This document shows positions 2,889-47,718 of a DNA stretch of 64,000 nucleotides, piece after piece. The translations under genes and the position numbers were made by a program. Positions within the stretch are counted from its first letter, which is position 1. Each line of letters opens with the position of its first letter. The notes below the pieces were generated by a model, which saw only the letters and a list, made by a program, of their open reading frames with translations, ran no database searches and had not been told where the DNA came from. Where the stretch lies: NCBI GenBank assembly GCA_963833505.1, contig CAWHYG010000007.1, forward strand, positions 195,964 to 259,963, given 5' to 3'. Source of the DNA: Candidatus Eiseniibacteriota bacterium. Its GTDB lineage: Bacteria > Eisenbacteria > RBG-16-71-46 > CAIMUX01.

Positions 2889-4924
2889 TGGCGCGCGCGT
2901 CTGCGGCCTCGAGGCCGGACTTCCTGAGGACGTGCCGATGGCGCCGCGCCGGAATCACGGTTCTTCTCGGCTGGATGCTGTTCGCGCCGCCGGCCCGGGC
3001 CGCGTTCGAGATCCGCCTGGGCGGGCCGATCGGGTCGCCGCTCGTCCCTCCGTTCCTGCCCGCGCCGTTCGAGTGGTTGGATGAGGTGCCGGCAAAGCTG
3101 TCGCCCGGGCTGGCCGTCGGGGCGCTGCACCTCGAGCCGTTCGGGCTTCCGGCCGTGACGTACGACGCCTGCGCCGTCGGCGGCTCGTTTCGCTCCTTCG
3201 CGCCGCATCTGCGCGTGGCGCGCCTCGCAGCAGCCGGCTACGCCGAAGACGAGGTGTCGGCGGGCCTCAAGAGCCGCTGCGGCCTGGCCGGAGAGGCCGA
3301 TCTGCTCGCGACCCAGGCCGGGCCGGGTCTTCAGACCCAATGGGGCATCCACCCGCACGCCGTGGCCACCGCCTCGGTCGGAGCAGCCCGCGGATGGAGG
3401 TTCTTCCGAGGTTCGCTCTGGATTCAGGACGCGCTTCGATCCGGCGGTTCCCGAAAGCTGGGACTGGCGCCCCGCCCGCAGGTTCGCCTCGAGATCCACG
3501 CCGGCTCCGGTTGGGTCCTGGCCCTGGGCAAGGACTGGGGCGTGTCGGGAGTTTCCGGCGGTCGTGCCCTGGCCGCCGTGCAATGGTCGCCCGGTTCGCT
3601 TCTCAAGGTCGGCGAGTGCTGGTCGGGGAGCGGCCCCGAGTGCCACTGGCTCGAGGCCGGCGCAGGCGCGCTGGAAGGCCTGCTGTGGAGCGCCTCAACG
3701 GAAAGCGGAGTTCCAGCGACGCCCGGGATCGCGCTCGCATGCTGCGTCCCGCGCGCCGGGAGGCCGGCCTCGAAGCCGAAGGACCGGTTCCTTTGGATGC
3801 GGCAGGCCTGTGATGGCGATCGGAGATCGGGCGTTCCTGGCGCGGCGGTCCGACTCGCGGATGAGCGCGCAGCGACCGGACCGGCGGACGGGAGGCCCGA
3901 ACCGCCGTCCTCGAAACCCGATTCGATGGCCGTGGATCAACCCCTGACCGAGCCAATGCCCTCGACCCCTGATTCGACGGCGGCGGACCAACCCGTGACC
4001 GACGCGGCGCTCGAAGACCTCGATGGCCCTCTTTTCCGGGACGGGCAGCTTCTGGATCAATGGGCGGAGGCCGACAGCTTCGGCGCCGAAACCGACTCCC
4101 TTTCCCCCGGCGATGGCGGAGCTTGCCGGGCTGCATCCTTGGGGCCTTCCACGGCGGCAAGGTCCCGGACTGCCTTGGGATCAGGCGTTCCGCGTCTTCG
4201 CGACGACCACGCCTGGTTTGGCCCGAACGGAGCCCGGCCCTGGCAATCGGATGACGCCCGGTTCGTGCGGCCGTTGGATCCGGGCGCCCTCAGCCTGCAG
4301 GTTGCGGCGCAAAACGGCCGGCCGCGCGACGCAGTGGGTCGGAGGCGGGCTCCTTCAGACTTCGCGGCTCGAGGCGGTCGCCGCCACCGGAGGTTGCCCG
4401 CTCTTCTTCGGGGTCGGTCTGTTGGCGCGAGCGCCGGCGGTGTTCCTGCAGACTCCCGGGGATTCGTCGGGTCGCGGCCTTCCCGCCGCTTCGAGGTCCG
4501 TGCGCGGCGGGACGCGAGCCGGCCGCGATCCCGATCCGTCTCTCTCGCCCGAAGCGACGGCTCAAGGCTTCTCGATCGGCCTGGCCGGGAGAATCGGCCG
4601 AGGCGTTCGTCTCCTGGCCTCGGAGGAACACGACGGCTCGCCGGTGGGATCGGAGAGTCATTGCATCGGCGTCCGCCGCGACGGGGCCGAATGGTCGGAG
4701 GGCGGTCTGTTGCGCTCGGCGCAACGCGGGCCGGGCGCGGCCGGCATCTGGGTCGCCCGGCGGCGGCCGGGGGAGGAGACGTCCCTGGAAATCGCGCGCC
4801 TGACGCCGTGCCTTGGTCAGGCCGGCGTTCGCTGGAGCCGGTTCCTGACCGGGGATCGCGGGCGCCGGCTCTGGTGGGACCTGGTCGTCCGGCAGGCTCT
4901 GCTTCCCTTGGATCGCTTGGATGA
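2885..4924 (+). CDS. hypothetical secreted protein (probably the 5' part of a longer frameshifted gene ending at 5693)
   Basis: ATG at 2885 overlaps the upstream stop (ATGA coupling); signal-peptide-like RRAGITVLLGWMLFAPPARA; codon third-position GC bias is clear up to ~4080, then the frame decays into Arg-rich translation; true 3' end uncertain. Confidence 0.4.
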   Translation: MMARASAASRPDFLRTCRWRRAGITVLLGWMLFAPPARAAFEIRLGGPIGSPLVPPFLPAPFEWLDEVPAKLSPGLAVGALHLEPFGLPAVTYDACAVGGSFRSFAPHLRVARLAAAGYAEDEVSAGLKSRCGLAGEADLLATQAGPGLQTQWGIHPHAVATASVGAARGWRFFRGSLWIQDALRSGGSRKLGLAPRPQVRLEIHAGSGWVLALGKDWGVSGVSGGRALAAVQWSPGSLLKVGECWSGSGPECHWLEAGAGALEGLLWSASTESGVPATPGIALACCVPRAGRPASKPKDRFLWMRQACDGDRRSGVPGAAVRLADERAATGPADGRPEPPSSKPDSMAVDQPLTEPMPSTPDSTAADQPVTDAALEDLDGPLFRDGQLLDQWAEADSFGAETDSLSPGDGGACRAASLGPSTAARSRTALGSGVPRLRDDHAWFGPNGARPWQSDDARFVRPLDPGALSLQVAAQNGRPRDAVGRRRAPSDFAARGGRRHRRLPALLRGRSVGASAGGVPADSRGFVGSRPSRRFEVRARRDASRPRSRSVSLARSDGSRLLDRPGRENRPRRSSPGLGGTRRLAGGIGESLHRRPPRRGRMVGGRSVALGATRAGRGRHLGRPAAAGGGDVPGNRAPDAVPWSGRRSLEPVPDRGSRAPALVGPGRPAGSASLGSLG

Positions 4925-5693
4925 CGGCGACCCGCCCGGCGCCCCCGCCAGGACGCTTTCGTATCGAGGGGCGGAGCTGGGCGCGTCCTCCGGGCGCCAG
5001 TCGGCCGGGGCTCAGGTTCTGTGGGAGCGGCGCGCGGCGTGTCTCGATCCGGCCTCCGGCGATCCGACTACGCCGCGGCTCCGCGAAGCCGAGGTCCGGC
5101 ACCTGCGGCTGTCCGGACAGGGATTCGTGACCGCGGGAATCGCCTGGACCTTCCGCGCCGACGCCCGGGACCGGACAGCCGTCACCGTGGGATTGCCGGA
5201 CGCGCCGTTTGAATCCGGGTTGTCCACCAGCACGAGCCGGATCCGAGCGCGCGCGACGCTCGAATCGACCGCCGGCGGCGGCCTTCTCGTCGGGCTCCCG
5301 TCCGGATATGGGCTCGAGCTGGGAGAAGAGGCGCTCCGGTCATCTTCCTCGGGAGGCTCCGATGCCGCCGTGCCTGCCCTCTGGGCCGGCGCCTGGCACA
5401 AATGCGCGATCCTGCGGCGGATCGACGGAGCGTTCGGTTTCGTCGTGATTCAACTTCCCGGATCGCGAAGCCTCTCGCTTTCCCCGTTCTGGATCGGAGG
5501 GAGCCGGTTCCCGGTTCGGGCCGGCGGATTCTGGAGCGCGGTCCGGGTGTCCGGGCGGCTCGGTCCCCTGGCCTGGTGGCTTCGCGGGTTTGTTCCCATC
5601 CGTCCGGAAGGAAGTCGTTCCACCGGGTCTGCCCGTCGGAATCCGGGAGGTGGATTCGAAGCCAGCGTGCATTTCGAAAGTGGAGCGGCCTGA
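4023..5693 (+). CDS. hypothetical protein, beta-rich/aromatic-rich C-terminal region (possible outer-membrane domain); probably the 3' part of the gene starting at 2885
   Basis: ORF 4023..5693; strong GC3 codon bias from ~4550 to the stop; overlaps the preceding ORF in another frame, so a frameshift or two overlapping genes; true start uncertain. Confidence 0.4.
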   Translation: MALFSGTGSFWINGRRPTASAPKPTPFPPAMAELAGLHPWGLPRRQGPGLPWDQAFRVFATTTPGLARTEPGPGNRMTPGSCGRWIRAPSACRLRRKTAGRATQWVGGGLLQTSRLEAVAATGGCPLFFGVGLLARAPAVFLQTPGDSSGRGLPAASRSVRGGTRAGRDPDPSLSPEATAQGFSIGLAGRIGRGVRLLASEEHDGSPVGSESHCIGVRRDGAEWSEGGLLRSAQRGPGAAGIWVARRRPGEETSLEIARLTPCLGQAGVRWSRFLTGDRGRRLWWDLVVRQALLPLDRLDDGDPPGAPARTLSYRGAELGASSGRQSAGAQVLWERRAACLDPASGDPTTPRLREAEVRHLRLSGQGFVTAGIAWTFRADARDRTAVTVGLPDAPFESGLSTSTSRIRARATLESTAGGGLLVGLPSGYGLELGEEALRSSSSGGSDAAVPALWAGAWHKCAILRRIDGAFGFVVIQLPGSRSLSLSPFWIGGSRFPVRAGGFWSAVRVSGRLGPLAWWLRGFVPIRPEGSRSTGSARRNPGGGFEASVHFESGAA

Positions 5694-8935: not shown

Positions 8936-10993
8936 TCAAGGACTGCCTGACGGCGAGCGGTTCCCTGGATTGCCCCTCGACAGCAGGCCTTGCATCTGTG
9001 CCGCCTCCGGCGCTCCCGGAAACTGATCAACGAACCGCGCGGCCCAGTCCCGCACCTTCGACCTGTCTTCGGCCTCCGCGTACAGCCCGATCAGATTCAG
9101 GTACGCGCTCTTCCGAGCCGGGTCGAGCGCGATGGCCCGCTGGAACCAGGCCGCGGCATCCTCCCGGTTCCCGGCCTTGCGCTCGGCCATCCCGAGGGCC
9201 TCCGCCAGGGACGCATCTCCGGGGTCGAGCGCCTGCGCCTGGGCCAGCACCCCGGCGGCGTCTCCATACCGGCCGGTCCGCGTCCAGGCGATTCCGAGGT
9301 CCTTGAGCAGCGTCTTGGACCGGTTCCCCAGGGAGTAGGCGGTCTCCAGCTCGCGCGCTCCCTCCTGAAAGCGTCCGGTGTTGACCAGGAGCGACCCGTA
9401 CTGCGCGTGTTTGAGCGGGTCCGCCGGGTCGATCCGGACTGCTTCCGCGAGGCAGGGCTCGGCGCCGGCAATGTCTCCTTCCTTGAGGAGCGCCGCGCCC
9501 AGGTTGGCGAGCGCGCGAGCGCTGGTCGGACGCGCCCGCACGTCGGCGGCGAACAGCGCGTGCTCGTTTCTCCAGGCCGGGAGCCTCGCTTCCAGGATCG
9601 CGCAGAACGGCAGCGCCAGGACCGCGCCCGCGATCCAGCCTCTCCTGGGATTCCTCGCCAGAAATCCGTCGGCGGCGGCTCCCAGAAACAGCAGCAGCCC
9701 CACCATCGGCAGATACAGGAAGCGCTCGCCGTAGATCTCTCCCGTTGGAAGGAACTGGAGCACGGGCAGGATCGAGAGGAAGAACAGGCACAGCCCGACT
9801 CCGCCCGCCGGAGAGGCCAGGATTCCGGCGAGTCCCGCCGGGATGAGCCGGCGCCGGCCGCCACTGTCCAACCCGCGCCCCGGCGATCGCCCCTGGAGAA
9901 GGGCAGCCGCCGACCAGACGCAGCCGATCCCGATCGCCGCCAGGACCAGCAGCCCGAGGAGTCCGGCAAGGAGCGGTGCCGGCGACTTCGAAAGCCGCGC
10001 CGGCGGATCGATCGCTAGCGGCCATGGAACCACTGCCAGCCGCAGATAGGTGACGAGGAGATTGCCGCCGAGCAGAAGGCGCGCGGCGAGCGAGCCGCGG
10101 CCGGGAAGAGACTGGCTTCGCCCGAACGCGCCGGCTCCCAGGACCGCGACGCGAAGGATGACGTAGGCCGCCACGGCCGTGCCCAGGGAAATCCAAAGGC
10201 AGAGCGGAACACGGCCGGGCGGCTTTCCGCCCTTGGTCGTGAGCCTCCCGTCTCGAGCCGACGGGCCGGCAGGTCGTCGGCTTCCGGACCGTTCGTTCAC
10301 GGATGCCTCCGGCCCAGGCGTCGATTCGCGCGGTTCCGGCGCGAGAAGAACCAGCGGCGCGAGCAGGATGAGCGCTCCGGCCGACTCCTTGGACGCCAGC
10401 GCAAGGAGGAGAGCCAACGAAGCGACCAGAGCGGCCGGCCATCGCCACCGGCGCGCCAGGCGCCCCTGCCGCGCGCGGCAAAGAAGGAGGAGACAGGCCA
10501 GGGTGAAAAACGCGGCGAAGAGATCGGTGAATCCCGAGATCCACGAAACGGCTTCGGACAGGACGGGATGGACCGCGAAAACCGCCCCCACGACGAGAGC
10601 AGTGGCCGGCGACAGCCCGAGCAGGGAGGCGAGCAGCGCCAGCGAGGCGGCGCAGGCGGCGTGAGTCGCGACGTTCCGGAGATGAAAGAGCCAGGGACGC
10701 CCATTCCCGGCGATCCAGGTGGTCGTGTTCATGATCGTGACGGCAGGGCGGTAGTAGAGGGCCGCATCCGGACTCCCGGCCCGCGACGGAACCCAGCCGT
10801 ATCCGTGGCCGATTGATCGCCCGAGATCTCCGAGATCGTGCGCCGCCGGATTTTCGGCGATGAAGGTCACGTCATCCCAGACGAAGCCGCCGAGCAGCGC
10901 CGGGAGATAGGCGAGAATCGCCAGCAGGATCACGGCGCCGAGCGCCGGGCGCAGATCAGCCGGCCTGGTCTTCCCGGCGTCGCCCTTCTTCAC
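8936..10993 (-). CDS. GT-C fold membrane glycosyltransferase fused to C-terminal TPR repeats (TMTC/PMT-like)
   Basis: Within ORF 8936..11251; multi-pass N-terminal membrane domain with FVWDDVTFIAENP motif, then TPR repeats; start set at GTG 10993, which overlaps the stop of the upstream SGNH gene (GTGA). Confidence 0.7.
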   Translation of the reverse strand: MKKGDAGKTRPADLRPALGAVILLAILAYLPALLGGFVWDDVTFIAENPAAHDLGDLGRSIGHGYGWVPSRAGSPDAALYYRPAVTIMNTTTWIAGNGRPWLFHLRNVATHAACAASLALLASLLGLSPATALVVGAVFAVHPVLSEAVSWISGFTDLFAAFFTLACLLLLCRARQGRLARRWRWPAALVASLALLLALASKESAGALILLAPLVLLAPEPRESTPGPEASVNERSGSRRPAGPSARDGRLTTKGGKPPGRVPLCLWISLGTAVAAYVILRVAVLGAGAFGRSQSLPGRGSLAARLLLGGNLLVTYLRLAVVPWPLAIDPPARLSKSPAPLLAGLLGLLVLAAIGIGCVWSAAALLQGRSPGRGLDSGGRRRLIPAGLAGILASPAGGVGLCLFFLSILPVLQFLPTGEIYGERFLYLPMVGLLLFLGAAADGFLARNPRRGWIAGAVLALPFCAILEARLPAWRNEHALFAADVRARPTSARALANLGAALLKEGDIAGAEPCLAEAVRIDPADPLKHAQYGSLLVNTGRFQEGARELETAYSLGNRSKTLLKDLGIAWTRTGRYGDAAGVLAQAQALDPGDASLAEALGMAERKAGNREDAAAWFQRAIALDPARKSAYLNLIGLYAEAEDRSKVRDWAARFVDQFPGAPEAAQMQGLLSRGNPGNRSPSGSP

Positions 10994-12234
10994 CTTTCGA
11001 CTCCGATCCGAGTGATTGTCTTCAACTCGCGAGCCGCGATCCGGGCGGCCAGCATGTGGCCTTCGCGGTTCCAATGCGGGTTCCGCCGGAAGTAGAGCAG
11101 GCCGCCCCGGGCCGCCGCCGCTCGGAAGTCCGGCAGGGGATCGATGACATCGAGCCCGACGTCCCGGCAGAACTGGAGCAGCCGTTGGTTGGGATAATCC
11201 GGATCGAAGTCGCCCGGTTTCAGCCCATAGCGATCCACCACCTGCTTCCACTGGCGGGGATAGACCTGGATCTGCGAGGGAATCAGGAAGAGCACCGGAT
11301 GCGACCCCTCGCGGATCACCGCCTCCCTCCAGGCCTCCAGCAGCGCGAGGGTCAGCTTCCAGGCGGCCTCCTGCGGAGGGGACGGGTGGACGCTCAGAAT
11401 GCCGACCTGGCTCGAGTAGTAGATCATCGGGCTGGAGTAGATCAGGCCGCTCGCTTCCCAGCGACGGGTCAAGGCGGGAATGCGCGAGAGCCAGTCGAAC
11501 ACGCTGGCATAGAGGGCGCTCCTGGCGTCCAGGAAATCGTGCAGGGGAAACGGGGAATGCGTCAGCGAATCGGGCGGGCCGGCGGAATCGGCGGGAGCCA
11601 CCCGGGGCACAGGAACGCCCTTCAGATCCAGCTTGTCGCCGTTGAACACGAAATAGGGTTTGTACAACCCGTACCGCTTGTCCCGGATGTTGTCCTCGAA
11701 GTCGTTGTCAATGGTCAGGGCGAGCAGGACGACGTCCGGCCGGTACCTCCTTCCCTCGGTGGCGTAGAGCAGGAACTCCTGATCCGTGCCGTAGCCGCTG
11801 ACTCCGAGGTTGACGACCTCGGTGTGGTCCAGCTCCTGTTTCAGAAGATCGGCGAAGTTGAATCGGCGCTCGACGCCGTCTCCCATCATGAAGGAGTCGC
11901 CCAGGATCAGGATCCGCCGCTTGCCCGGCTGCCGCTCGTAGGGAATCTCGTCGTCCCGGAATCCGCGGGAATTCGTGGTGATGGTGTGCTCCACCTCCCA
12001 GGTGCGGTGCAGGATGGTAACGTTGGGCTTGAGGGTCCAGCCGAGGAGCTCGTTGTACTGCCCGAGGCGGCCGTCGGTCAGGAACTGGTCGCGCGTGATC
12101 GAGCCCGGATGCCGGTGGCTGCCGCGTTCATAGGGGAGAAAATGCCGCAGGAGCAGCTCACAGGCCATCAGCCCGATCAAGGTGCTGCCGGCCGCCAGAA
12201 GCAGGTTGCTCTGCCAGGGCTTGATCCGGGGCAC
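10990..12234 (-). CDS. SGNH/GDSL-family hydrolase (N-terminal membrane anchor)
   Basis: ORF 10990..12234, 414 aa; motifs ILILGDSFMMG and GVSGYGTDQE typical of SGNH hydrolases/acyl-esterases; N-terminal TM helix. Confidence 0.7.
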   Translation of the reverse strand: MPRIKPWQSNLLLAAGSTLIGLMACELLLRHFLPYERGSHRHPGSITRDQFLTDGRLGQYNELLGWTLKPNVTILHRTWEVEHTITTNSRGFRDDEIPYERQPGKRRILILGDSFMMGDGVERRFNFADLLKQELDHTEVVNLGVSGYGTDQEFLLYATEGRRYRPDVVLLALTIDNDFEDNIRDKRYGLYKPYFVFNGDKLDLKGVPVPRVAPADSAGPPDSLTHSPFPLHDFLDARSALYASVFDWLSRIPALTRRWEASGLIYSSPMIYYSSQVGILSVHPSPPQEAAWKLTLALLEAWREAVIREGSHPVLFLIPSQIQVYPRQWKQVVDRYGLKPGDFDPDYPNQRLLQFCRDVGLDVIDPLPDFRAAAARGGLLYFRRNPHWNREGHMLAARIAARELKTITRIGVER

Positions 12235-12334
12235 GCCGCCATCCCCTCCTTCGGCGGGAGCGCCGCGGTCCGACGCGCCGGTCGCCGTGAACGCCCGCCG
12301 ACCGGGCGGGCGCCATGATCATCCTACATCGCGA

Positions 12335-14257
12335 TCAATCCCGGCCGCCGGCCGCTCCTCCGGAAGCCGCTCCGGCGCTGAGCGCGGCCTGGACGCGGCG
12401 CAGGCCTTCCTGGGCTCGCCCGTATCGCGTCTTGAGGCTCAGAGCGGCCTGGTACTGGACGAGGCTCGCCGGGAGCTGCCCCAGCGCCTCCAGGGAAGCG
12501 GCGAGATTGCAGCGGAGAAGAGCGTCCTCCGGCTTGAGGGCGACCGCTCGCTCGAAATAGGGGAGGCTCTGCGCCATCTGACCGGATGAAGCCAGAGCCG
12601 CTCCCAGGTCGTTGCACGCGGACGGGTTGTTCGGATTCGCCTCGAGCGCCTGCCGGAATTCCGCGATGGCCGCGCCGGTGGCGCCTCGGGTCCAGTACGC
12701 GATTCCGCGCTGATAGTGCCAGCGCGCCGGACTCCCGTGCACACCTGCGAAATTGATCGAGGCGAGGACGCCCGCGACGATCAAGAGGCTTCCCCAGCGG
12801 ATCAGGGGCGACCAGTTCCTGTCCCGGAACCATCGGCCCATGCGTTCAAGAAAAACGGCGGCCAACAGGATGAGCAGGGGAACGATGGGGAGACGGTAGC
12901 GGGTGGTGATGCCGAAGGGCAGGTATGACACCACCCAGGCGACGAGGAAGAGGAGCAGAAGCGCCGGCACCACGTTCCCGCGGCGCGCCTCGCCGGGCGG
13001 CAGCGTCTCTCCGCGCCGCTTTTCCCCGGAAGCCGGCTTCTTCCTCTCGCGCCAGGCCGCCAGCAGCCACTGGAGCGCGCCGGCCAGGCCCAGCGCCAGG
13101 ATCGGAGGGAAGCCCACCGGATCGAACCTCAGCACCGCCGAGGACTTCCTCTCCAGCGCCAGCTCCTTGCTGTCCGAAGACTCTTCCGGCCCCCAGAAGA
13201 TCAGCGCACGCCGGCCGAGAAGCTCAAGCTCGCGCCCCGGATGTGCCGCCATGAAGCGGAACGCCCGGCCGGAGTAGTAGCTGGAAAGCTCGGAGTAGCT
13301 GAGCTTCCGGCCCAGCCGGGCTTCAACGTTGGCCGCCAGCTCAGGGTAGTCGTAGCAGGTGTGGCGGACGTCGATCTCCGGATTGTCGGCGCTGACCAGG
13401 CCGTTGGCAGTCTCGTTGTTCCCCATGAACAGGTTGATGCCGCCGTTGGAAGAGATCGGCACCAGCTCGCGGCTCGCGGTCCAGTTGCGGATCGTCGCCG
13501 GCAGGATCATCAAGAGCGCCCCGAGCGACAAGGCGAGGATCGTGGCCGGACATCGGCGGCGCTCTCCGTCGCTGCGCTCGATCCAGTACGTCCAGACCCA
13601 CGCCGCCGGGAGCAGCAGAAGGGCGCTGGGCCGCGCCAGGCCGTTCAGGCCGATCAGGACGCCCGCCCCGGCCGCCCGGAGCGGCGTCCTCTGCCTCTCC
13701 CAGGACATCAGCGCGAGAATCAGGCCGAGCAACAGCAGGACCATCAGCACCGGTTCCTGGAATTCCCCTTCGAAGTAGATGAAGGTCCAGTAGGTCGCCA
13801 TCAGGAGCGCGGTGATCCCGCCGGCCGCGGGACCGAAGGCCACGGACGCGATCCGGAACGCCAGGCAGACGTTCAGCAGTCCCAGCGCCATCTGGAGCAG
13901 ACGGGGGCCGAGATAACCGGGGCCGGTCGCGCGATACAGGAGACCGAGGAAGTAGGGATAGCCCGGAGGCCGGAAGTACGGAGTCGTTCGAATCTGCGGG
14001 TCCGGATTGTCCCCCGGCGGCTGCCATTGGCCGAAGGCGAGAGCGCGGGCCCAGTAGTTGTGATAGTCCGCGTCGGCCTGGGGCGCGTTGTAGTCGGGCG
14101 CGCGCGTCAGGTCCAGCAGGTAGAGTCCGCGAAGACCGGCGCCCAGAAGAAGCGCCAGCGCCAGCACGGCCAGCGCCCACCGCCTCCGGGGCATCGTCGG
14201 CCGCGGCGCAGGGATTCCCCGTTCGCGAGCAGCGGGTTTACGCGCGGGCCGGCTCAT
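12335..14257 (-). CDS. glycosyltransferase family 39 (ArnT/PMT-like) membrane protein with C-terminal TPR repeats
   Basis: ORF 12335..14257, 640 aa; N-terminal multi-TM domain with DADYHNYWARALAFG ... TTPYFRPPGYPYFLGL; C-terminal TPR repeats; start ATG overlaps upstream stop (TGATG). Confidence 0.75.
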   Translation of the reverse strand: MSRPARKPAARERGIPAPRPTMPRRRWALAVLALALLLGAGLRGLYLLDLTRAPDYNAPQADADYHNYWARALAFGQWQPPGDNPDPQIRTTPYFRPPGYPYFLGLLYRATGPGYLGPRLLQMALGLLNVCLAFRIASVAFGPAAGGITALLMATYWTFIYFEGEFQEPVLMVLLLLGLILALMSWERQRTPLRAAGAGVLIGLNGLARPSALLLLPAAWVWTYWIERSDGERRRCPATILALSLGALLMILPATIRNWTASRELVPISSNGGINLFMGNNETANGLVSADNPEIDVRHTCYDYPELAANVEARLGRKLSYSELSSYYSGRAFRFMAAHPGRELELLGRRALIFWGPEESSDSKELALERKSSAVLRFDPVGFPPILALGLAGALQWLLAAWRERKKPASGEKRRGETLPPGEARRGNVVPALLLLFLVAWVVSYLPFGITTRYRLPIVPLLILLAAVFLERMGRWFRDRNWSPLIRWGSLLIVAGVLASINFAGVHGSPARWHYQRGIAYWTRGATGAAIAEFRQALEANPNNPSACNDLGAALASSGQMAQSLPYFERAVALKPEDALLRCNLAASLEALGQLPASLVQYQAALSLKTRYGRAQEGLRRVQAALSAGAASGGAAGGRD

Positions 14258-16212
14258 CAGGGGTTCGGCGCCCGCCGGTCCTCGCCGGTCGCCAGGGCGC
14301 GTTGGATCCGGGCGAGGCCTTCCTGGGCCCGCCGGGAATCAGGATCGATCCTGAGCGCCTCCTCGTACTGCGTCCTCCCGTCCGACGGGCGGCCCAGAGC
14401 TTCGTAGGCCGCCGCCAGGTTGCAGCGCGTCACGGCGTCGTCCGGTTTCGACTGGACCGCGCGCTGAAAGTACACGAGGGCCTCGCCCATCCTGCCTTCC
14501 TGCGCGAGAGTCGTCCCGAGGTCGTTGCACGCCGCCGCGTGGCGCGGGTTCGCCTGAAGCGTCTCGCCGTATTCGCGCACGGCCTCGTCTCTCCGGCCCA
14601 GGCGCTGGTAGGCGATGGCGCGCTCGTAGTGCCATCGAGCGAGGCTCGGCTGGTACCGGAGCGGATCCAGGTGGGCGAGAAGGAAAAGGACCACGAACAA
14701 CCCCGCCCATCGACCGGCCATCGCGAGGTTTCGCTTCTTCAGGAGGCCGACCACCCGCATCACGAACACCGCGCCGAACAGCATCAGAAACGGGATGACC
14801 GGTACGCGGTAGCGCGACGTGATGACGAAGGGCAGATAGGAGAGGAACCAGACGATCAGGATGACGAGCAAGAGCTCGGTCAGCTCCTGCGCCTGATCGG
14901 AAACCTCGCCGGCGCGCCGATCCGGCGGTCGAGCCCGCCGCTCCTTCATCAGCAGGATGATCCCGCCGAGGCCCAGAGCCAGCACGAGGGAGAAGCTCCA
15001 TGGGTTCCACCGCAGCACTCCCAGCGCCTGCCGCTCCGCTTCGACGACCTTGCTGTCGTCGAGTTCCTTGGGTCCCCAGAAGAACAACGTCTTCCTTCCG
15101 GCGAGGCCCAGGCTGTCGAGCGGATGATCCAGCAGGAAGCGAAGCGCCCCGCGGGAGAAGTAGGCCGAGACCTCGGCGTGCGACATGGGACGGCCGAGCT
15201 TCCTCTCCACCCGGGCCACGATCTGCGGCCAGTCGTAGCAGGTGTCAAGCTCGCCGATGTCGGGCAGGGTGCCGCGGACCAGCCCGTCGGCCCGCCCGTT
15301 GTTCCCCATGTACAGGTTGATGCCGCCGTTCGAGGAGATGGGCACGAACTCGTGGGCGACGCTCCAGTTGCGGATGGTGGCGGGAAGAAGGGCCAGCGCC
15401 ATCCCGCCGAAGAGCGCAGCGACGTTTCCGGTCCATCGCGCCCGCGCGCGCCGGCGCTGCAGGATCCACCAGGCCCACAGCGCGACGGCCGGACCGAGCA
15501 CCAGGGCGTTCGGACGGATCAGCGCGATGAATCCCATCAGGATCCCGGCCGCCAAAGCCAGGAGCGGACGAGGTTTCGCCGCCCAGCGCAGGAGCAGATA
15601 AACCAGGAGGAGCAGGAGCGGGCAGAGGAGCGCGGGATCGAGCAGCTCGCCTTCATGGAAGATGAAGACCCAGTCGGTCGCCGTCATGCCGGCGAAGACC
15701 AGCCCCACCGCGGGTCCGAAGATCGGCGCGGCCAGGAAGAACGCCCCGGCCGACGTGACCAGGCCCAACAGCATCTGGACGACGCGGGGTCCGACGTAGC
15801 CCGGCCCGGTCAGCTTGTAGACGAGGGCCAGAAAATACGGGTATCCCGGCGGACGGAAATAGGGAGTGGTCCGGATCTCGGGATCGGGATTGCCCCAACG
15901 CTGGGTCCACGATCCGAAGGCGAGGCCCCGAGCCCAGTAATCGTGGTAGTCGGCGTCCACCTCGGGAACCTTGAAGTCAGGCTGCCGGGCGATCTCCGTC
16001 AGATAGACGCCGCGCAGAACGGCTCCCAGGAGCAGGATCGCGGCCAGAACGAGCAGGACCCCCGGTGTGATCGCAAGCGACGCGCGCCACGACCGCGCGC
16101 TCCCGCCCGGCCGCGCGTCCCGCGTGGCTCCGGCACCCGGCGCTCCCGGTTTCCCGCGCGGAGGCGACGTCCCCTCGGGACGTTTGCCCCCCTCTTTGGC
16201 GACTCGATTCAC
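14257..16212 (-). CDS. glycosyltransferase family 39 (ArnT/PMT-like) membrane protein with C-terminal TPR repeats (paralog of 12335..14257)
   Basis: ORF 14257..16212, 651 aa; same motifs as the neighbour (DADYHDYWARGLAFG, TTPYFRPPGYPYFLAL); C-terminal TPR. Confidence 0.75.
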   Translation of the reverse strand: MNRVAKEGGKRPEGTSPPRGKPGAPGAGATRDARPGGSARSWRASLAITPGVLLVLAAILLLGAVLRGVYLTEIARQPDFKVPEVDADYHDYWARGLAFGSWTQRWGNPDPEIRTTPYFRPPGYPYFLALVYKLTGPGYVGPRVVQMLLGLVTSAGAFFLAAPIFGPAVGLVFAGMTATDWVFIFHEGELLDPALLCPLLLLLVYLLLRWAAKPRPLLALAAGILMGFIALIRPNALVLGPAVALWAWWILQRRRARARWTGNVAALFGGMALALLPATIRNWSVAHEFVPISSNGGINLYMGNNGRADGLVRGTLPDIGELDTCYDWPQIVARVERKLGRPMSHAEVSAYFSRGALRFLLDHPLDSLGLAGRKTLFFWGPKELDDSKVVEAERQALGVLRWNPWSFSLVLALGLGGIILLMKERRARPPDRRAGEVSDQAQELTELLLVILIVWFLSYLPFVITSRYRVPVIPFLMLFGAVFVMRVVGLLKKRNLAMAGRWAGLFVVLFLLAHLDPLRYQPSLARWHYERAIAYQRLGRRDEAVREYGETLQANPRHAAACNDLGTTLAQEGRMGEALVYFQRAVQSKPDDAVTRCNLAAAYEALGRPSDGRTQYEEALRIDPDSRRAQEGLARIQRALATGEDRRAPNP

Positions 16213-16432
16213 GCGCTGCCGATCCCCCGCGTGTCCGTCCTGGGACCAAACCGCTTGCCCCAGGGTACCGCAGGTTCGACGCCGCCGTCAGCAGGGAGAC
16301 GGCCGGCGCGGCGGCATGGCGGAAGCAACACGCTGTTGTCTCTGTTGGTCTGCCGTCGGCGCAAGCGAGTCGGCCAGCGGCTTTGCGTTCGAAGGCGGAA
16401 AGGGTGCATACCATTTGCAGAGGAGAATCCCG

Positions 16433-17071
16433 ATGCGGAAATCGCTTTTCCTGGTTGGTCTCTTGCTCTTTTCCCTGGCGCGTCCCGGCGTGGGCAGTTG
16501 CGGCCCGTTGCTCAACGAGATTCTCGCCGCCCCGGCCCGCGACTGGGACGGCGACGGCTCGTACAACTCGAAGAACGATGAGTGGGTCGAAATCGTGAAC
16601 CCCGGCTCATCCGCTCTCGATCTCACCGGCTACTACCTGGGCGACCAGGCCGGGAAGTGCGTCTATGGCTTTTCGGGCAGTCTGGCCGCCGGTGCGGTTC
16701 AGGTCGTCTACGGCAGCCAGTCGGTCGCCTGGGAATCGGCTCACGGGCAATCCACCGTGGGGCTCGGTCTCGCCAACAGCGGCGATACCGTGGAGCTGCT
16801 CCAGATGGTCGGGAAAGACACTCTCCTGGTCGACGCCTACACCTACAACGCCAATGAAGGGGGGTCCGACCGTTCCACCGGACGAGTTCCCGACGGCGGG
16901 CCCGACTGGCAGATCTTCGACGCGCTCGACGTCTATCACGGAACGACGCCGCCTCTCGGCAACGGCCTCGCGCCCACGCCGGGCGCGCTGAACGATCCGG
17001 CCGTGACCCAACCCACGCAGGTGGCCACCGACACCTGGGGGCGCGTCAAGAGCCTGTACGGCCGCCCGTAG
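16433..17071 (+). CDS. lamin-tail-domain (LTD) secreted protein / possible lipoprotein
   Basis: Within ORF 16067..17071; start at MRKSLFLVGLLLFSLARPGVGSCG (signal peptide with Cys); LTD motifs LLNEILAAP ... DEWVEIVNPGSSALDLTGYYLGD ... GDTVELL. Confidence 0.7.
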   Translation: MRKSLFLVGLLLFSLARPGVGSCGPLLNEILAAPARDWDGDGSYNSKNDEWVEIVNPGSSALDLTGYYLGDQAGKCVYGFSGSLAAGAVQVVYGSQSVAWESAHGQSTVGLGLANSGDTVELLQMVGKDTLLVDAYTYNANEGGSDRSTGRVPDGGPDWQIFDALDVYHGTTPPLGNGLAPTPGALNDPAVTQPTQVATDTWGRVKSLYGRP

Positions 17072-17245: not shown

Positions 17246-18325
17246 ATGCCGTTTCCATCTCCCGATCGCCTGGAGTCGATCCTGACCGGTTTTTCCGGTC
17301 AGAAGGTGCTGGTCCTCGGCGACCTCATGCTGGATCGCTACGTCTGGGGAGACACTGCGCGCATTTCCCCGGAAGCGCCGGTCCCGGTCATCGAGGCGCG
17401 GGAAGAGACGGCCCGGCTCGGCGGCGCGGCCAACGTCGCCAGCAATATCCAGGCTCTCGGCGCAGAGCCGCTCCTGGTCGGCGTGACCGGAGCGGACAAC
17501 TTCGGGCAGGAGCTGGTGCGCCTGCTTCGCGGCCGACACATCTCCGCCGGCTGGCTGGTGGCCGATCGGGGCCGCCGCACCACCACGAAGACCCGCATCC
17601 TGGCGCGAAACCAGCAGATCGTCCGGGTGGACCAGGAGGAGACCGCCGAGGTCAACGGCGCGGTCCTGGACTCGGTGCTGGATCGAGCCTCGGCCGCCCT
17701 CGAAAAGGCCGCGGCCTGCGTCATTTCGGACTACGGCAAGGGCGTCATCACGCGCGCTCTTCTCGAGAGCGTGCTCTCGGAGACGAAGTCCCGGGGGATC
17801 CCGGTCTGCGTCGATCCGAAGGAAACGCATTTCTTCTCGTATCGCGGCGTGGCCGTCATCACGCCGAACGCGGCCGAGGCGGGAACGGCTTTCGGCCGGC
17901 GGCTGCGGGATCTGCCGACCCTGCTCGCGGCGGGGCAGCGCCTGCGGTCGGAGCTGGGCTGCCGCGCCGTTCTGATCACCCGCGGCGAGCAGGGCATGAC
18001 GCTTTTCCAGGAGGCGGGTCCGACGCTTCACTTCCCGGCCGTGGCCACCGAGGTCTTCGACGTCACGGGCGCGGGCGACACGGTGGTGAGCGTCTTCGCC
18101 CTCGCTCTGGCCGCCCGGGCCGAGCCGGCGGAAGCCGCCGCGATCGCCAATCATGCCGCGAGCCTGGTCATTCGCGAGGTCGGGACGTCGGCCACGACGG
18201 TGGAAGCGATCCGGCGCTCCTTCGTCGATCAGGGAGGGGCGGATCCCGAGGAATTGCGGGCGGACGGGCCACCGGACGGCGCGCCTGGAGGATCGCCGGA
18301 TGGACCGATCGATTTCCGACCCTGA
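17246..18325 (+). CDS. hldA: D-glycero-beta-D-manno-heptose-7-phosphate kinase (RfaE domain I, carbohydrate kinase)
   Basis: ORF 17246..18325, 359 aa; pfkB-family kinase motifs VLVLGDLMLDRY, PNAAEA, VFDVTGAGDTV; matches HldE N-terminal domain. Confidence 0.85.
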   Translation: MPFPSPDRLESILTGFSGQKVLVLGDLMLDRYVWGDTARISPEAPVPVIEAREETARLGGAANVASNIQALGAEPLLVGVTGADNFGQELVRLLRGRHISAGWLVADRGRRTTTKTRILARNQQIVRVDQEETAEVNGAVLDSVLDRASAALEKAAACVISDYGKGVITRALLESVLSETKSRGIPVCVDPKETHFFSYRGVAVITPNAAEAGTAFGRRLRDLPTLLAAGQRLRSELGCRAVLITRGEQGMTLFQEAGPTLHFPAVATEVFDVTGAGDTVVSVFALALAARAEPAEAAAIANHAASLVIREVGTSATTVEAIRRSFVDQGGADPEELRADGPPDGAPGGSPDGPIDFRP

Positions 18326-18881
18326 AGGGCTCCTGTCCCGCCCGGACCTGGCTCGCCGCTGCCAGGACCTTCGCCGCCGGAGCGCCCGGATCGTCTTCAC
18401 CAACGGCTGCTTTGACCTGCTCCATGCCGGACATGTGCTCTACCTGGCTGAGGCGAGGGCCCTGGGCGACGTCCTCGTGGTCGGGCTGAATTCCGACACC
18501 AGCGTCCGCCTGCTCAAGGGGCCGACCCGTCCCTTCCAGGACGAGCGGGAACGGGCGCTCCTCTTGCTCTCCTTGCGCTCGGTCGACCTCGTTTCGATCT
18601 TCCCGGAACCCACCCCTTTGGAGTTGATCGGTGCCGTCCAGCCGGATATCCTCGCCAAGGGCGGGGATTATCGCCCGGAGGAGGTTGTTGGGCGGGAGGT
18701 GGTGGAAGCCGCCGGGGGTGAGATCCGTATCATCCCGTTCCATGCCGGATATTCGAGCAGCGCTCTGATCCGGTCCATTCTGCGATCGCTGTTCCCTGGA
18801 GGGCCGGCCCTAGAGCGGTCGCCAGGCGGGCGGCGCGCCGAGGGGATCCGCCGGGGACTGGCCGCGCGCCCACTCCTCTAA
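18300..18881 (+). CDS. hldC: D-glycero-beta-D-manno-heptose-1-phosphate adenylyltransferase (RfaE domain II, cytidylyltransferase-like)
   Basis: Within ORF 18153..18881; start at MDRSISD (18300); motif IVFTNGCFDLLHAGHVLYL typical of the nucleotidyltransferase HxGH family; overlaps hldA 3' end. Confidence 0.8.
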   Translation: MDRSISDPEGLLSRPDLARRCQDLRRRSARIVFTNGCFDLLHAGHVLYLAEARALGDVLVVGLNSDTSVRLLKGPTRPFQDERERALLLLSLRSVDLVSIFPEPTPLELIGAVQPDILAKGGDYRPEEVVGREVVEAAGGEIRIIPFHAGYSSSALIRSILRSLFPGGPALERSPGGRRAEGIRRGLAARPLL

Positions 18882-23052: not shown

Positions 23053-23604
23053 GTGAACCCATCCGGGCCCTTCGTGCTGTCGCTGCACGACCTCGAAGAG
23101 GGGGAGACGCACCTGGAGATGGTCGGAACCGGTTCCGACCTGGAACTCTCGCGGGACGAGCTGGCGCTGTCCCAGCCGGTCGTGCTGCGCGCCAAGGTCT
23201 TCCGGGCCGCCTACCATGTGGAGGTCCAGGGGACCCTCCTGACGACCGCGGATCTGGTCTGTGATCGCTGTCTCGAACCGATCCGGCGCGCGCTCGAGAT
23301 CCCGTTTCGGGTATTCTCCGAGCGGCAGGAGACCCGGGACCACCGGACCAGACAGGAAATGCGTGAAGAGGATCCCGGGATCGTCTACCATGATGGGCAG
23401 TTTGTGGTTCTGACCGACGAAGTGAGACAGGAGCTTCTGGTGGAGAAGCCCTGGCACGTCGTCTGCCGGCCGGACTGCCTGGGGCTCTGCCCGCGCTGCG
23501 GAGGCAACCGCAACGTGAGCGGCTGCACCTGTCCGGATCGCCGGGATCAGGACAGCCCCGACGCGGAACGCATGGACTCGAAACCAAGAATTGAGTCGGA
23601 GTAG
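23053..23604 (+). CDS. yceD: YceD/DUF177 family protein (large-subunit rRNA accumulation factor)
   Basis: ORF 23053..23604, 183 aa; C-terminal CxxC...CxxC (CDRCLEP ... CLGLCPRCG); conserved position upstream of rpmF-plsX-fab operon. Confidence 0.8.
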   Translation: MNPSGPFVLSLHDLEEGETHLEMVGTGSDLELSRDELALSQPVVLRAKVFRAAYHVEVQGTLLTTADLVCDRCLEPIRRALEIPFRVFSERQETRDHRTRQEMREEDPGIVYHDGQFVVLTDEVRQELLVEKPWHVVCRPDCLGLCPRCGGNRNVSGCTCPDRRDQDSPDAERMDSKPRIESE

Positions 23605-47522: not shown

Positions 47523-47718
47523 CCGTGCCTTTTTTCCATCTTCGGGGGCCCGGCGCCCCCCCGATGCCGCCCGAGACGGGCGACCTCCCTGTTCGAACCC
47601 CTCAGCATCATACCCGCTCCCGGCCGAACTTGTCCCGGTCCCAGGAGTATAAGCGGGTAGTACGGGGAGACCGCGAGGTTCGAAATCTCGCCGCTGGAAT
47701 GCGGCGCCCTGGAGTGTC

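What the first reader, a model, noticed from the sequence alone, without database searches (positions are those of the whole stretch)
8936..17071. Translationally coupled cluster of three TPR-fused GT-C glycosyltransferases plus an SGNH hydrolase, next to LTD secreted proteins
Four minus-strand genes overlap start/stop codons (TGATG, GTGA), indicating one operon: two paralogous GT39 (ArnT/PMT-like) membrane enzymes with C-terminal TPR, an SGNH hydrolase, and a third GT-C/TPR (TMTC-like, FVWDD motif) enzyme. This TMTC-like architecture is typical of protein O-mannosyl-type transferases rather than lipid A modification. An LTD secreted protein lies immediately upstream on the other strand and another LTD protein is at 1080-2888. 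Hypothesis: a dedicated protein O-glycosylation and O-acyl-editing module acting on secreted or cell-surface substrates.
Basis: inference. Interest (0 to 1): 0.6.

Follow-up and report, generated by a model that had tools for sequence, protein, structure and literature searches.

The report
TPR-fused membrane glycosyltransferases plus SGNH enzyme
Four same-strand genes encode three membrane glycosyltransferases with TPR tails and one membrane-anchored SGNH enzyme, probably a periplasm-facing module that decorates envelope proteins or glycans; the gene set is real, but its target and its proposed link to the neighbouring LTD proteins are unproven.

Summary
The genes are real and mostly as described. 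There are two 48%-identical PMT_2-type GT-C enzymes with C-terminal TPRs (14257-16212 and 12335-14257). There is one membrane-anchored SGNH enzyme with an AlgX/AlgJ-like C-terminal half (10990-12234). There is a third GT-C/TPR protein with the FVWDD motif (8936-10993). All are on the minus strand.

Corrections:
- Only two of the three junctions can overlap (TGATG, GTGA).
- The TGATG overlap depends on start choice, because the public gene call starts GT-B 63 nt further downstream.
- GT-B and the SGNH gene are separated by 100 nt.

The four-gene arrangement is not conserved. The LTD neighbourhood was not seen in the relatives' loci whose genes were domain-annotated. What recurs is the SGNH gene next to a TPR-fused GT-C gene: in its closest relatives, and again in Elusimicrobia, Binatia, Geobacter and Nitrospirota.

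The acceptor is unresolved: protein about 0.4, non-protein glycoconjugate about 0.3. This is an uncharacterised member of an annotated kind, of moderate interest.

The parts
14257..16212 (-). GT-A: 651-aa GT-C glycosyltransferase (PMT_2 family) with about 3-4 C-terminal TPRs
   Evidence: Pfam PMT_2 at 1.9e-12, 48.2 bits against a cut-off of 26.1, plus TPR families. The exact product is in the public collection. The AlphaFold2 model of aa 1-510 has pLDDT 90. Foldseek against PDB finds only GT-C enzymes: STT3/AglB/PglB at about 1e-5, Pmt4 at 2.6e-3 and ArnT at 7.8e-3. D86, R95, E187, R281, N282 and E383 are invariant across the family alignments.
12335..14257 (-). GT-B: paralogue of GT-A. It is 640 aa from the ATG that overlaps the GT-A stop, or 619 aa from the ATG at 14194.
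   Evidence: PMT_2 at 3.8e-10 plus TPR. It is 48% identical to GT-A over 575 aa, E = 7e-167. The public call is 619 aa (P0261).
12235..12334 (-). 100-nt spacer between GT-B and the SGNH gene, with an AGGAGG ribosome-binding site
   Evidence: Sequence. No terminator-like site lies in it. Its fold is no more stable than shuffled sequence, z = 0.6.
10990..12234 (-). SGNH: 414-aa enzyme with an N-terminal membrane anchor, a GDS(F) block I and an AlgX/AlgJ-like C-terminal half (NPHW motif)
   Evidence: Lipase_GDSL_2 at 1.5e-9 (aa 110-189) and ALGX at 2.3e-11 (aa 288-406). A family profile matches AlgJ 4o8v at 6.6e-11 and AlgX at 2.5e-7. G112-D113-S114, N142, D365 and H387-W388 are invariant in 26 homologues. 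There is a single hydrophobic segment at aa 11-29.
8936..10993 (-). Gene 4: 685-aa TMTC-like GT-C (FVWDD motif) with about 5-6 C-terminal TPRs. Its GTG start overlaps the SGNH stop (GTGA).
16213..16432 (.). 220-bp divergent intergenic region between GT-A and the LTD gene, presumably holding the operon promoter
   Evidence: Sequence. No sigma-70-like match was found there. A promoter function is inferred only.
16433..17071 (+). Adjacent 212-aa secreted LTD protein. It is a neighbour and is not shown to belong to the module.
   Evidence: LTD PF00932 at 4.2e-13. GAGGAG lies 7 nt before the ATG at 16433. A signal peptide ends in a possible lipobox, VGSC. No LTD neighbour was found in related loci.

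Best explanation
The four genes form one or two transcription units for a modification module that acts at the periplasmic face of the inner membrane.

Each of the three GT-C enzymes is taken to use a polyprenyl-phosphate-linked monosaccharide as donor. The conserved acidic residues of the first periplasmic loop would do the chemistry: D40/D41 in gene 4 and D86 in GT-A. The C-terminal TPR domain, placed in the periplasm, would hold the acceptor or a partner protein.

The SGNH enzyme is tethered by one N-terminal helix, with Ser114 and His387 in the periplasm. It would add or remove an O-acyl group on the same glycan.

The acceptor I consider most likely is exported or envelope protein, that is, TMTC/PMT-like O-glycosylation of Ser/Thr.

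Shown here: the gene structures, the GT-C fold, the conserved motifs, the TPR and SGNH domains, and the recurring SGNH/GT-C adjacency. Inferred: the donor type, the periplasmic orientation of the TPRs, co-transcription, the acceptor class and the direction of the SGNH reaction.
For: - GT-C fold for both families. PMT_2 hits are above the Pfam cut-off.
- Gene 4 is homologous through its whole membrane domain to DUF1736-bearing bacterial proteins. DUF1736 is the signature domain of the TMTCs, which are described as protein O-mannosyltransferases (PMC7801869).
- From established knowledge, the characterised glycosyltransferases fused to TPRs (OGT, SPY, TMTC1-4) act on proteins.
- Basic loops precede the last membrane helix in GT-A (KKRN) and gene 4 (RNPRRG). 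By the positive-inside rule this puts the TPRs on the same side as the catalytic loop (sequence, helices; inference).
- The SGNH catalytic Ser and His are invariant, and the protein has a single N-terminal anchor.
- The SGNH gene is directly next to a TPR-fused GT-C gene in its closest relatives, L007/L008 and L171, at 64-66% identity. It is also next to one in four distant lineages: L014 Elusimicrobia, L015 Binatia, L018 Geobacter and L047 Nitrospirota.
- TPR proteins are the commonest Pfam class among 106 immediate neighbours of the SGNH family.
- Paralogue arrays differ widely in TPR content in L014 and L015. That pattern fits diversification for different acceptors.
Against: - No acceptor, donor synthase (GT2), flippase or MBOAT/AT3 partner was found among the window ORFs scanned.
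- The four-gene arrangement is unique among the relatives sampled.
- Only 7 of 94 SGNH-anchored loci of 8 kb or more carry a strong GT-C hit.
- Gene 4 lacks the DUF1736 signature (no PF08409 hit). The conserved DNPL stretch of the DUF1736-bearing relatives is replaced in its family. That loop was proposed to be critical for catalysis in TMTCs (PMC7801869).
- To my knowledge, characterised bacterial enzymes of the ArnT type, which this Pfam family is taken to cover, act on lipid A, LPS or teichoic acids, not on proteins.
- ADP-heptose genes lie next door. Epimerase, GT4 and flippase genes lie near relatives.
Confidence: 0.4

Rival explanations
1. The same enzymes modify a non-protein envelope glycoconjugate, such as LPS core or lipid A, a lipoglycan or a secreted polysaccharide. 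The GT-Cs add side-branch sugars in the periplasm. The TPR domains act as scaffolds that dock the SGNH acyl-modifying enzyme, as AlgK, PelB and PgaA do in polysaccharide export systems.
For: - GT-A and GT-B match Pfam PMT_2. JGI annotates relatives of GT-A as ArnT-like.
- To my knowledge, the characterised bacterial enzymes of this ArnT-like kind act on lipids or glycolipids.
- rfaE domains I and II (ADP-heptose synthesis) lie about 1 kb from GT-A.
- The GT-A relative in L090 sits among GT4, PAP2, epimerase and Polysacc_synt flippase genes.
- SGNH relatives sit next to epimerase, nucleotidyltransferase, carbamoyltransferase, B12-radical SAM and GT4 genes.
- The closest solved relatives of the SGNH C-terminal half are the alginate O-acetylation proteins AlgJ and AlgX.
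Against: - There is no sequence-level relation to ArnT.
- The window holds no polysaccharide synthase, export or MBOAT genes among the ORFs scanned.
- The rfaE genes are on the other strand, beyond the LTD gene.
- No characterised lipid- or LPS-modifying GT-C is known to me to carry TPRs.
Confidence: 0.3
2. There is no common pathway. The cluster is a lineage-specific juxtaposition of independently acting envelope enzymes. Tight spacing reflects a compact genome, and the SGNH enzyme is a general periplasmic esterase or lipase.
For: - The arrangement is not conserved.
- The SGNH family is very large, with 7,553 representative clusters at 1e-30, and has very varied neighbours.
- No SGNH/GT-C fusions occur among the best 150 representatives.
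- A 100-nt spacer with its own ribosome-binding site splits the cluster.
- The surrounding genes are housekeeping.
Against: - SGNH/TPR-GT-C adjacency recurs in at least five lineages, including alternating arrays on one strand in L014.
- The SGNH/gene 4 junction is a 4-nt overlap.
- All four products have periplasm-facing parts (inference).
Confidence: 0.15
3. The module is dedicated to the neighbouring LTD proteins, which are its glycosylated and acyl-edited substrates.
For: - An LTD protein with a signal peptide and a Pro/Thr-rich tail is transcribed divergently 220 bp from GT-A.
- A second LTD protein lies 6 kb beyond the other end of the cluster.
Against: - No LTD domain is listed in the Pfam-annotated related loci L001, L002, L005, L007, L089, L090, L171 and L172.
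- No LTD domain appears among the neighbours scanned in L014, L015, L018 and L047.
- phmmer with both LTD domains hit none of 170 loci (low sensitivity).
- Two LTD genes among the roughly 55 genes of this window suggest the domain is common in this genome, so adjacency could be chance.
Confidence: 0.07

Closest known systems
TMTC1-4 (CAZy GT105), eukaryotic ER protein O-mannosyltransferases of cadherins
   Same: Gene 4 has the same architecture: an N-terminal multi-span GT-C domain with a DD motif in the first extracytoplasmic loop, followed by C-terminal TPRs. It is homologous over the whole membrane domain to bacterial proteins that carry the TMTC signature domain DUF1736. Prokaryotic homologues are mentioned but not characterised in PMC7801869 and in 10.1101/2023.08.23.554508.
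   Different: Gene 4 gets no PF08409 hit, and the conserved DNPL stretch of the DUF1736-bearing relatives is replaced. It is bacterial and periplasmic, so its donor would be a bacterial polyprenyl phosphate sugar rather than Dol-P-Man. It has a 45-aa basic insert at aa 218-263. Its acceptor is unknown.
PMT family (GT39), Dol-P-Man or polyprenyl-P-Man protein O-mannosyltransferases (yeast Pmt1/2/4, actinobacterial Pmt)
   Different: There is no PF02366 PMT hit and no MIR domain. PMT_4TMC scores only 17.6 bits against a cut-off of 32.4. A TPR tail takes the place of the MIR domain. A family profile does not find any solved PMT by sequence.
ArnT (GT83), undecaprenyl-P-L-Ara4N:lipid A transferase
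   Different: There is no NCBIfam ArnT match and no profile hit to ArnT structures. ArnT has a small periplasmic C-terminal domain, not TPRs. No arn operon genes are nearby.
AlgX/AlgJ with the TPR lipoprotein AlgK (alginate O-acetylation)
   Same: The SGNH C-terminal half aligns with AlgJ and AlgX across the D-x-H-W region. The idea of a periplasmic acyl-modifying SGNH-type enzyme working beside a TPR scaffold is the same.
   Different: Here the likely nucleophile is the N-terminal GDS block I serine, as in classical SGNH hydrolases, not a serine downstream of the DxH motif. The motif is NPHW in this protein. There is no MBOAT (AlgI) or AlgF partner and no carbohydrate-binding module. The TPRs are fused to glycosyltransferases.

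Membership tests
GT-C fold glycosyltransferases | Multi-span membrane domain with the GT-C architecture | tested here: met
GT-C fold glycosyltransferases | Conserved acidic residue(s) in the first extracytoplasmic loop | tested here: met
   D40 and D41 are invariant in 35 gene 4 relatives. D86 is invariant in the GT-A family. Their role in catalysis is inferred, not shown.
Pfam PMT_2 (PF13231) | Score above the gathering cut-off of 26.1 bits | tested here: met
   GT-A 48.2 bits and GT-B 40.6 bits. Gene 4 has no hit.
PMT / GT39 in the strict sense | PF02366 PMT domain, MIR domain and PMT_4TMC | tested here: not met
   No PF02366 or MIR hit. PMT_4TMC scores 17.6 bits against a cut-off of 32.4. 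There is no profile hit to solved PMTs.
ArnT / GT83 in the strict sense | Sequence match to ArnT models or structures | tested here: not met
   No ArnT model appears among the NCBIfam hits. An HMM of the GT-A membrane domain finds no ArnT chain at E <= 10. The only similarity is at fold level.
TMTC-like / DUF1736 (GT105) | DD motif after the first membrane helix | tested here: met
   FVWDD at aa 36-41 of gene 4. D40 and D41 are invariant.
TMTC-like / DUF1736 (GT105) | DUF1736 loop (PF08409) between TM7 and TM8 | tested here: not met
   No PF08409 hit at E <= 10. In the hhalign alignment the DNPL stretch conserved in the DUF1736-bearing relatives is not conserved in the gene 4 family.
TMTC-like / DUF1736 (GT105) | Homology of the whole membrane domain to DUF1736-bearing proteins | tested here: met
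   hhalign A1 against A6: probability 100%, E = 3e-104, 562 columns. The YRP, H..N, HPV..E, SKES and ERFLYLP motifs are shared.
TMTC-like / DUF1736 (GT105) | C-terminal TPR domain on the same membrane side as the catalytic loop | tested here: inconclusive
   TPRs are present. Their orientation is inferred only from basic loops before the last helix and from the model's helices. Model coordinates could not be inspected.
TMTC-like / DUF1736 (GT105) | Protein O-mannosyltransferase activity | not testable with these tools
   Needs biochemistry or glycoproteomics.
SGNH/GDSL hydrolase superfamily | Block I GDS serine, a conserved Asn in the NLGVSGYGTDQ stretch, and a C-terminal catalytic His | tested here: met
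   G112-D113-S114, N142 and H387 are invariant in 26 homologues. Lipase_GDSL_2 scores 39.1 bits against a cut-off of 32.9.
AlgX/AlgJ-type O-acetyltransferases | D-x-H-W motif followed by the nucleophile Ser, working with an MBOAT partner | tested here: not met
   The match is partial: ALGX profile positions 21-132 of 268, and AlgJ at 6.6e-11. The motif is N-P-H-W here and D-P-H-W in some homologues. The protein ends about 25 aa after it, so there is no downstream Ser. No MBOAT appears among the window ORFs scanned.
Translationally coupled operon | Stop/start overlaps at every junction | tested here: inconclusive
   GTGA at SGNH/gene 4 is solid. TGATG at GT-A/GT-B depends on start choice. GT-B/SGNH has a 100-nt gap. 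No transcript data are available.
Lamin tail domain (LTD) proteins | PF00932 above the cut-off of 34.3 bits | tested here: met
   50.1 bits (16067-17071 ORF) and 45.3 bits (1080-2888).

The most novel reading that the evidence does not exclude
The recurring pair of a membrane-anchored SGNH enzyme and a TPR-fused TMTC/PMT_2-like GT-C is a conserved two-enzyme module. It is seen here and in Elusimicrobia, Binatia, Geobacter and Nitrospirota, sometimes as alternating arrays. It would be a bacterial counterpart of the eukaryotic TMTC pathway, putting O-linked sugars on periplasmic or surface proteins. The SGNH enzyme would dock on the TPR domain to acylate or de-acylate the sugar. Paralogue arrays would then represent acceptor-specific enzymes.
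Probability: 0.15. Interest if true: 0.65.

Novelty: new member of a known kind. Interest (0 to 1): 0.33.

Why it matters
TPR-fused GT-C proteins are abundant in uncultured phyla such as Eisenbacteria, Planctomycetota, Elusimicrobia and Nitrospirota. Databases label them 'tetratricopeptide repeat protein', 'glycosyltransferase family 39 protein' or 'protein O-mannosyl-transferase'. I found no experimentally characterised bacterial member in the literature searches.

If they glycosylate proteins, they would be a widespread and unrecognised bacterial O-glycosylation route related to the animal TMTC enzymes. The recurring SGNH partner gives a concrete handle for reconstitution.

As it stands, this window adds one more uncharacterised example. 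It also shows that the LTD link and the four-gene operon are not general.

Tried and rejected
- Single-sequence phmmer of full-length GT-A and gene 4 against PDB returned only TPR proteins. The membrane parts alone gave nothing.
- A profile of the GT-A membrane domain against PDB gave only spurious rhodopsin matches at E about 0.03. No residue-level alignment to ArnT or PMT active sites could therefore be made.
- I looked for SGNH/GT-C fusion proteins, which would have indicated a functional link, among 1.84 billion representatives. None occurs in the best 150, whose lengths are 206-528 aa.
- The LTD co-occurrence test by phmmer on 170 loci found nothing, but it is insensitive. The two window LTD domains do not even find each other.
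- The scan for a terminator or structured RNA in the GT-B/SGNH spacer was negative. Rfam found nothing in the cluster.
- No GT2 donor synthase, flippase or MBOAT/AT3 was found among the GC3-supported ORFs of the window.
- I considered a recent tandem duplication of GT-A and GT-B and rejected it. GT-A is closer to proteins of other organisms (55-57%) than to GT-B (48%).
- The organism could not be named directly. Relatives are labelled Candidatus Eisenbacteria, and the window carries a T9SS SprA gene.

Full report
**What is in the sequence**

The window is 68% GC, so mechanical ORF lists are full of spurious frames. Third-codon-position GC singles out four minus-strand genes between 8936 and 16212.
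- GT-A, 14257-16212, 651 aa.
- GT-B, 12335-14257, 640 aa from the first ATG.
- An SGNH gene, 10990-12234, 414 aa.
- Gene 4, 8936-10993, 685 aa.

The exact GT-A, SGNH and gene 4 products exist in a public 2.45 Mb contig, so independent gene callers agree. GT-B is called there as 619 aa, from the ATG at 14194 (P0261). An independent short assembly of the same organism also calls gene 4 from the GTG that overlaps the SGNH stop.

**Junctions**

- The GT-A stop and the first GT-B ATG form TGATG. If the public start is right, there is a 60-nt gap instead.
- The SGNH stop and the gene 4 GTG form GTGA.
- GT-B and SGNH do not overlap. A 100-nt spacer holds an AGGAGG 10 nt before the GTG.
- The spacer has no terminator-like hairpin and no unusual fold.

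The genes are very likely co-transcribed, but 'four overlapping genes' overstates what the sequence shows.

**Domain assignment**

- GT-A and GT-B hit Pfam PMT_2 above the cut-off and carry three to four C-terminal TPRs. They are 48% identical over 575 aa.
- GT-A is closer to proteins from other organisms (55-57%) than to GT-B. They are therefore old paralogues, not a recent duplication.
- The SGNH protein has a single N-terminal hydrophobic anchor.
- Its N-terminal half has a classical GDS block I (Lipase_GDSL_2).
- Its C-terminal half matches the AlgX/AlgJ family across their D-x-H-W region.
- G112-D113-S114, N142, D365 and H387-W388 are invariant in 26 homologues. It is most likely an active enzyme.
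- Whether it hydrolyses or transfers acyl groups cannot be read from the sequence.
- Gene 4 has only TPR hits. Its 480-aa membrane part has no Pfam or PDB sequence match even at E = 10.

**What gene 4 is**

- Its homologues are at most 50% identical. The more distant ones carry PF08409 (DUF1736, the TMTC signature) or PMT_2.
- A profile of 35 relatives aligns with a profile of 22 DUF1736-bearing bacterial proteins. Probability is 100% and E = 3e-104 across the whole membrane domain.
- The two profiles share the DD motif, YRP, H..N, HPV..E, SKES and ERFLYLP.
- The stretch aligned to the conserved DNPL motif of the DUF1736-bearing proteins is different in the gene 4 family. This explains the missing Pfam hit.
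It fails the formal DUF1736 test.

**What GT-A and GT-B are**

- A model of the GT-A membrane domain (pLDDT 90) matches only GT-C enzymes. TM-scores are modest, at 0.45 or so.
- The Foldseek hits are STT3/AglB/PglB at about 1e-5, Pmt4 at 2.6e-3 and ArnT at 7.8e-3.
- A family profile finds no solved GT-C by sequence. No NCBIfam ArnT model matches.
- The GT-A and gene 4 membrane domains share no pairwise similarity.
- The cluster therefore holds two distinct, uncharacterised GT-C families. Neither is ArnT nor a canonical PMT.
- Basic loops before the last membrane helix (KKRN in GT-A, RNPRRG in gene 4) put the TPR domains in the periplasm by the positive-inside rule. This is an inference.

**Is the arrangement conserved?**

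It is not conserved as a whole.
- Gene 4 relatives stand alone (L001, L002).
- GT-A relatives sit in other contexts with no SGNH gene (L089, L090).
- SGNH orthologues at 49-56% identity have no GT-C within reach (L005/L009, L010, L091, L092, L172).
- I built HMMs for both GT-C families and searched 160 SGNH-anchored loci from GTDB genomes and JGI metagenomes. Seven of the 94 loci of 8 kb or more carry a strong GT-C hit.

**The part that does recur**

- The closest SGNH orthologues (64-66% identity, L007/L008 and L171) are divergent neighbours of one GT-A-like gene.
- Distant SGNH homologues sit directly beside TMTC-like TPR genes in four lineages.
  - Elusimicrobia (L014): an alternating GT-C, SGNH, GT-C, SGNH array on one strand.
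  - Binatia (L015).
  - Geobacter (L018).
  - Nitrospirota (L047).
- In a Pfam census of 106 immediate neighbours, TPR proteins were the commonest class, with 6 members. Radical SAM had 5, GDSL paralogues 4 and carbamoyltransferase 3.
- The unit that recurs is SGNH plus a TPR-fused GT-C. The association is facultative.
- I could not compute a proper genome-background enrichment.
- No SGNH/GT-C fusion appears among the best 150 of 81,720 family representatives.

**LTD neighbours and wider context**

- Both LTD proteins are real. The nearer one is a 212-aa secreted protein starting at 16433. It has a possible lipobox and a Pro/Thr-rich tail.
- No LTD domain is listed in the eight related loci with precomputed Pfam annotation. 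None appears among the neighbours I scanned in the four distant loci.
- A weak phmmer test was also negative.
- Two LTD genes among the roughly 55 genes of this window suggest the domain is simply common in this genome.
- The rest of the window is housekeeping:
  - carbamate kinase and rfaE domains I and II;
  - succinyl-CoA ligase beta subunit, Ndk and fatty-acid synthesis genes;
  - LptF/G and the T9SS translocon SprA;
  - NusA, IF-2, TruB, S15 and PNPase.
- There is no GT2 donor synthase, flippase, MBOAT or polysaccharide export gene.

**Interpretation**

- All four products have periplasm-facing functional parts. The most economical reading is a periplasmic-face modification module.
- Polyprenyl-phosphate sugars would serve as donors, the TPR domains would hold the acceptor or a partner, and the SGNH enzyme would edit O-acyl groups.
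- I rate a protein acceptor most likely, at about 0.4. The reasons are:
  - the characterised TPR-fused glycosyltransferases act on proteins;
  - gene 4 is a TMTC-family homologue (PMC7801869);
  - the paralogue arrays have diversified TPR tails.
- A non-protein glycoconjugate is nearly as likely, at about 0.3. The reasons are:
  - the known bacterial ArnT-like precedents act on lipids or glycolipids;
  - rfaE lies next door;
  - relatives sit in sugar and polysaccharide contexts;
  - the SGNH enzyme has AlgX/AlgJ affinity.
- Pure juxtaposition gets about 0.15. The LTD-specific version gets about 0.07.

**Verdict**

The architecture and the TMTC-like homology hold. The conserved operon, the LTD link and the protein acceptor are not shown.
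- Literature searches found no characterised bacterial TPR-fused GT-C.
- This is a new, uncharacterised member of a widely annotated kind. The SGNH pairing is the most useful lead.

Noticed in passing
window 23595-25474 (-): A complete group II intron. Rfam RF02005 (D1-D4) matches 25251-25474 at 185.6 bits, and RF00029 (domains V/VI) matches 23595-23669. The reverse transcriptase/maturase ORF is 23741-25186 (TIGR04416, 304.7 bits). It is inserted between yceD and plsX.
   Followed up: partly
window 47653-55227 (+): A 2,524-aa T9SS outer-membrane translocon SprA/Sov (TIGR04189, 475 bits). The organism therefore has type IX secretion. This fits the Candidatus Eisenbacteria labels on the closest relatives of the GT genes.
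   Followed up: partly
window 17246-18881 (+): ADP-heptose synthesis is split into two genes: rfaE domain I (kinase, 17246-18325) and domain II (adenylyltransferase, within ORF 18153-18881). They lie directly downstream of the LTD gene, and both score above the NCBIfam cut-offs.
   Followed up: partly
window 2483-5693 (+): Downstream of the 602-aa LTD protein there are two long plus-strand ORFs with coding-like GC3 but no Pfam hit (2483-4924 and 4023-5693). They overlap by about 900 nt in different frames. This could be two genes with later starts, or one gene with a frameshift.
   Followed up: no
L047 6500-8908 (-) (Nitrospirota MAG, CAWFSF010000006.1): A TMTC-like GT-C/TPR protein of 803 aa carries a C-terminal multihaem cytochrome c7/c3 domain (Cytochrome_C7 at 1.3e-7, aa 722-764). 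It sits next to an SGNH homologue and near a carbamoyltransferase.
   Followed up: no
L014 1-10927 (Elusimicrobia MAG); L015 1-10066 (Binatia MAG): These loci hold arrays of TMTC-like GT-C/TPR paralogues interleaved with SGNH genes on one strand. L014 reads GT-C, SGNH-like, GT-C, SGNH, then a B12-radical SAM gene on the other strand, then GT-C. L015 reads GT-C, SGNH, then three GT-Cs. TPR content differs greatly between paralogues.
   Followed up: partly
L005/L009 (Terriglobia MAG), L014, L018, L047: The SGNH family also recurs next to B12-binding radical SAM enzymes and next to carbamoyltransferase (with DUF5989 in L005). This hints at a broader glycoconjugate-tailoring neighbourhood.
   Followed up: partly
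window 10205-10342 (-), gene 4 aa 218-263: A 45-aa basic, Pro/Ser/Gly-rich insert is predicted to be disordered (pLDDT about 45-55). It is absent from the family consensus and is probably a cytoplasmic loop.
   Followed up: no
window 16433-17071 (+) and 1080-2888 (+): The short LTD protein ends in TWGRVKSLYGRP after a Pro/Thr-rich linker. The long one ends in a beta-rich stretch that looks like a C-terminal sorting domain, though it has no Pfam hit. Both might be T9SS or surface-anchored cargo.
   Followed up: no
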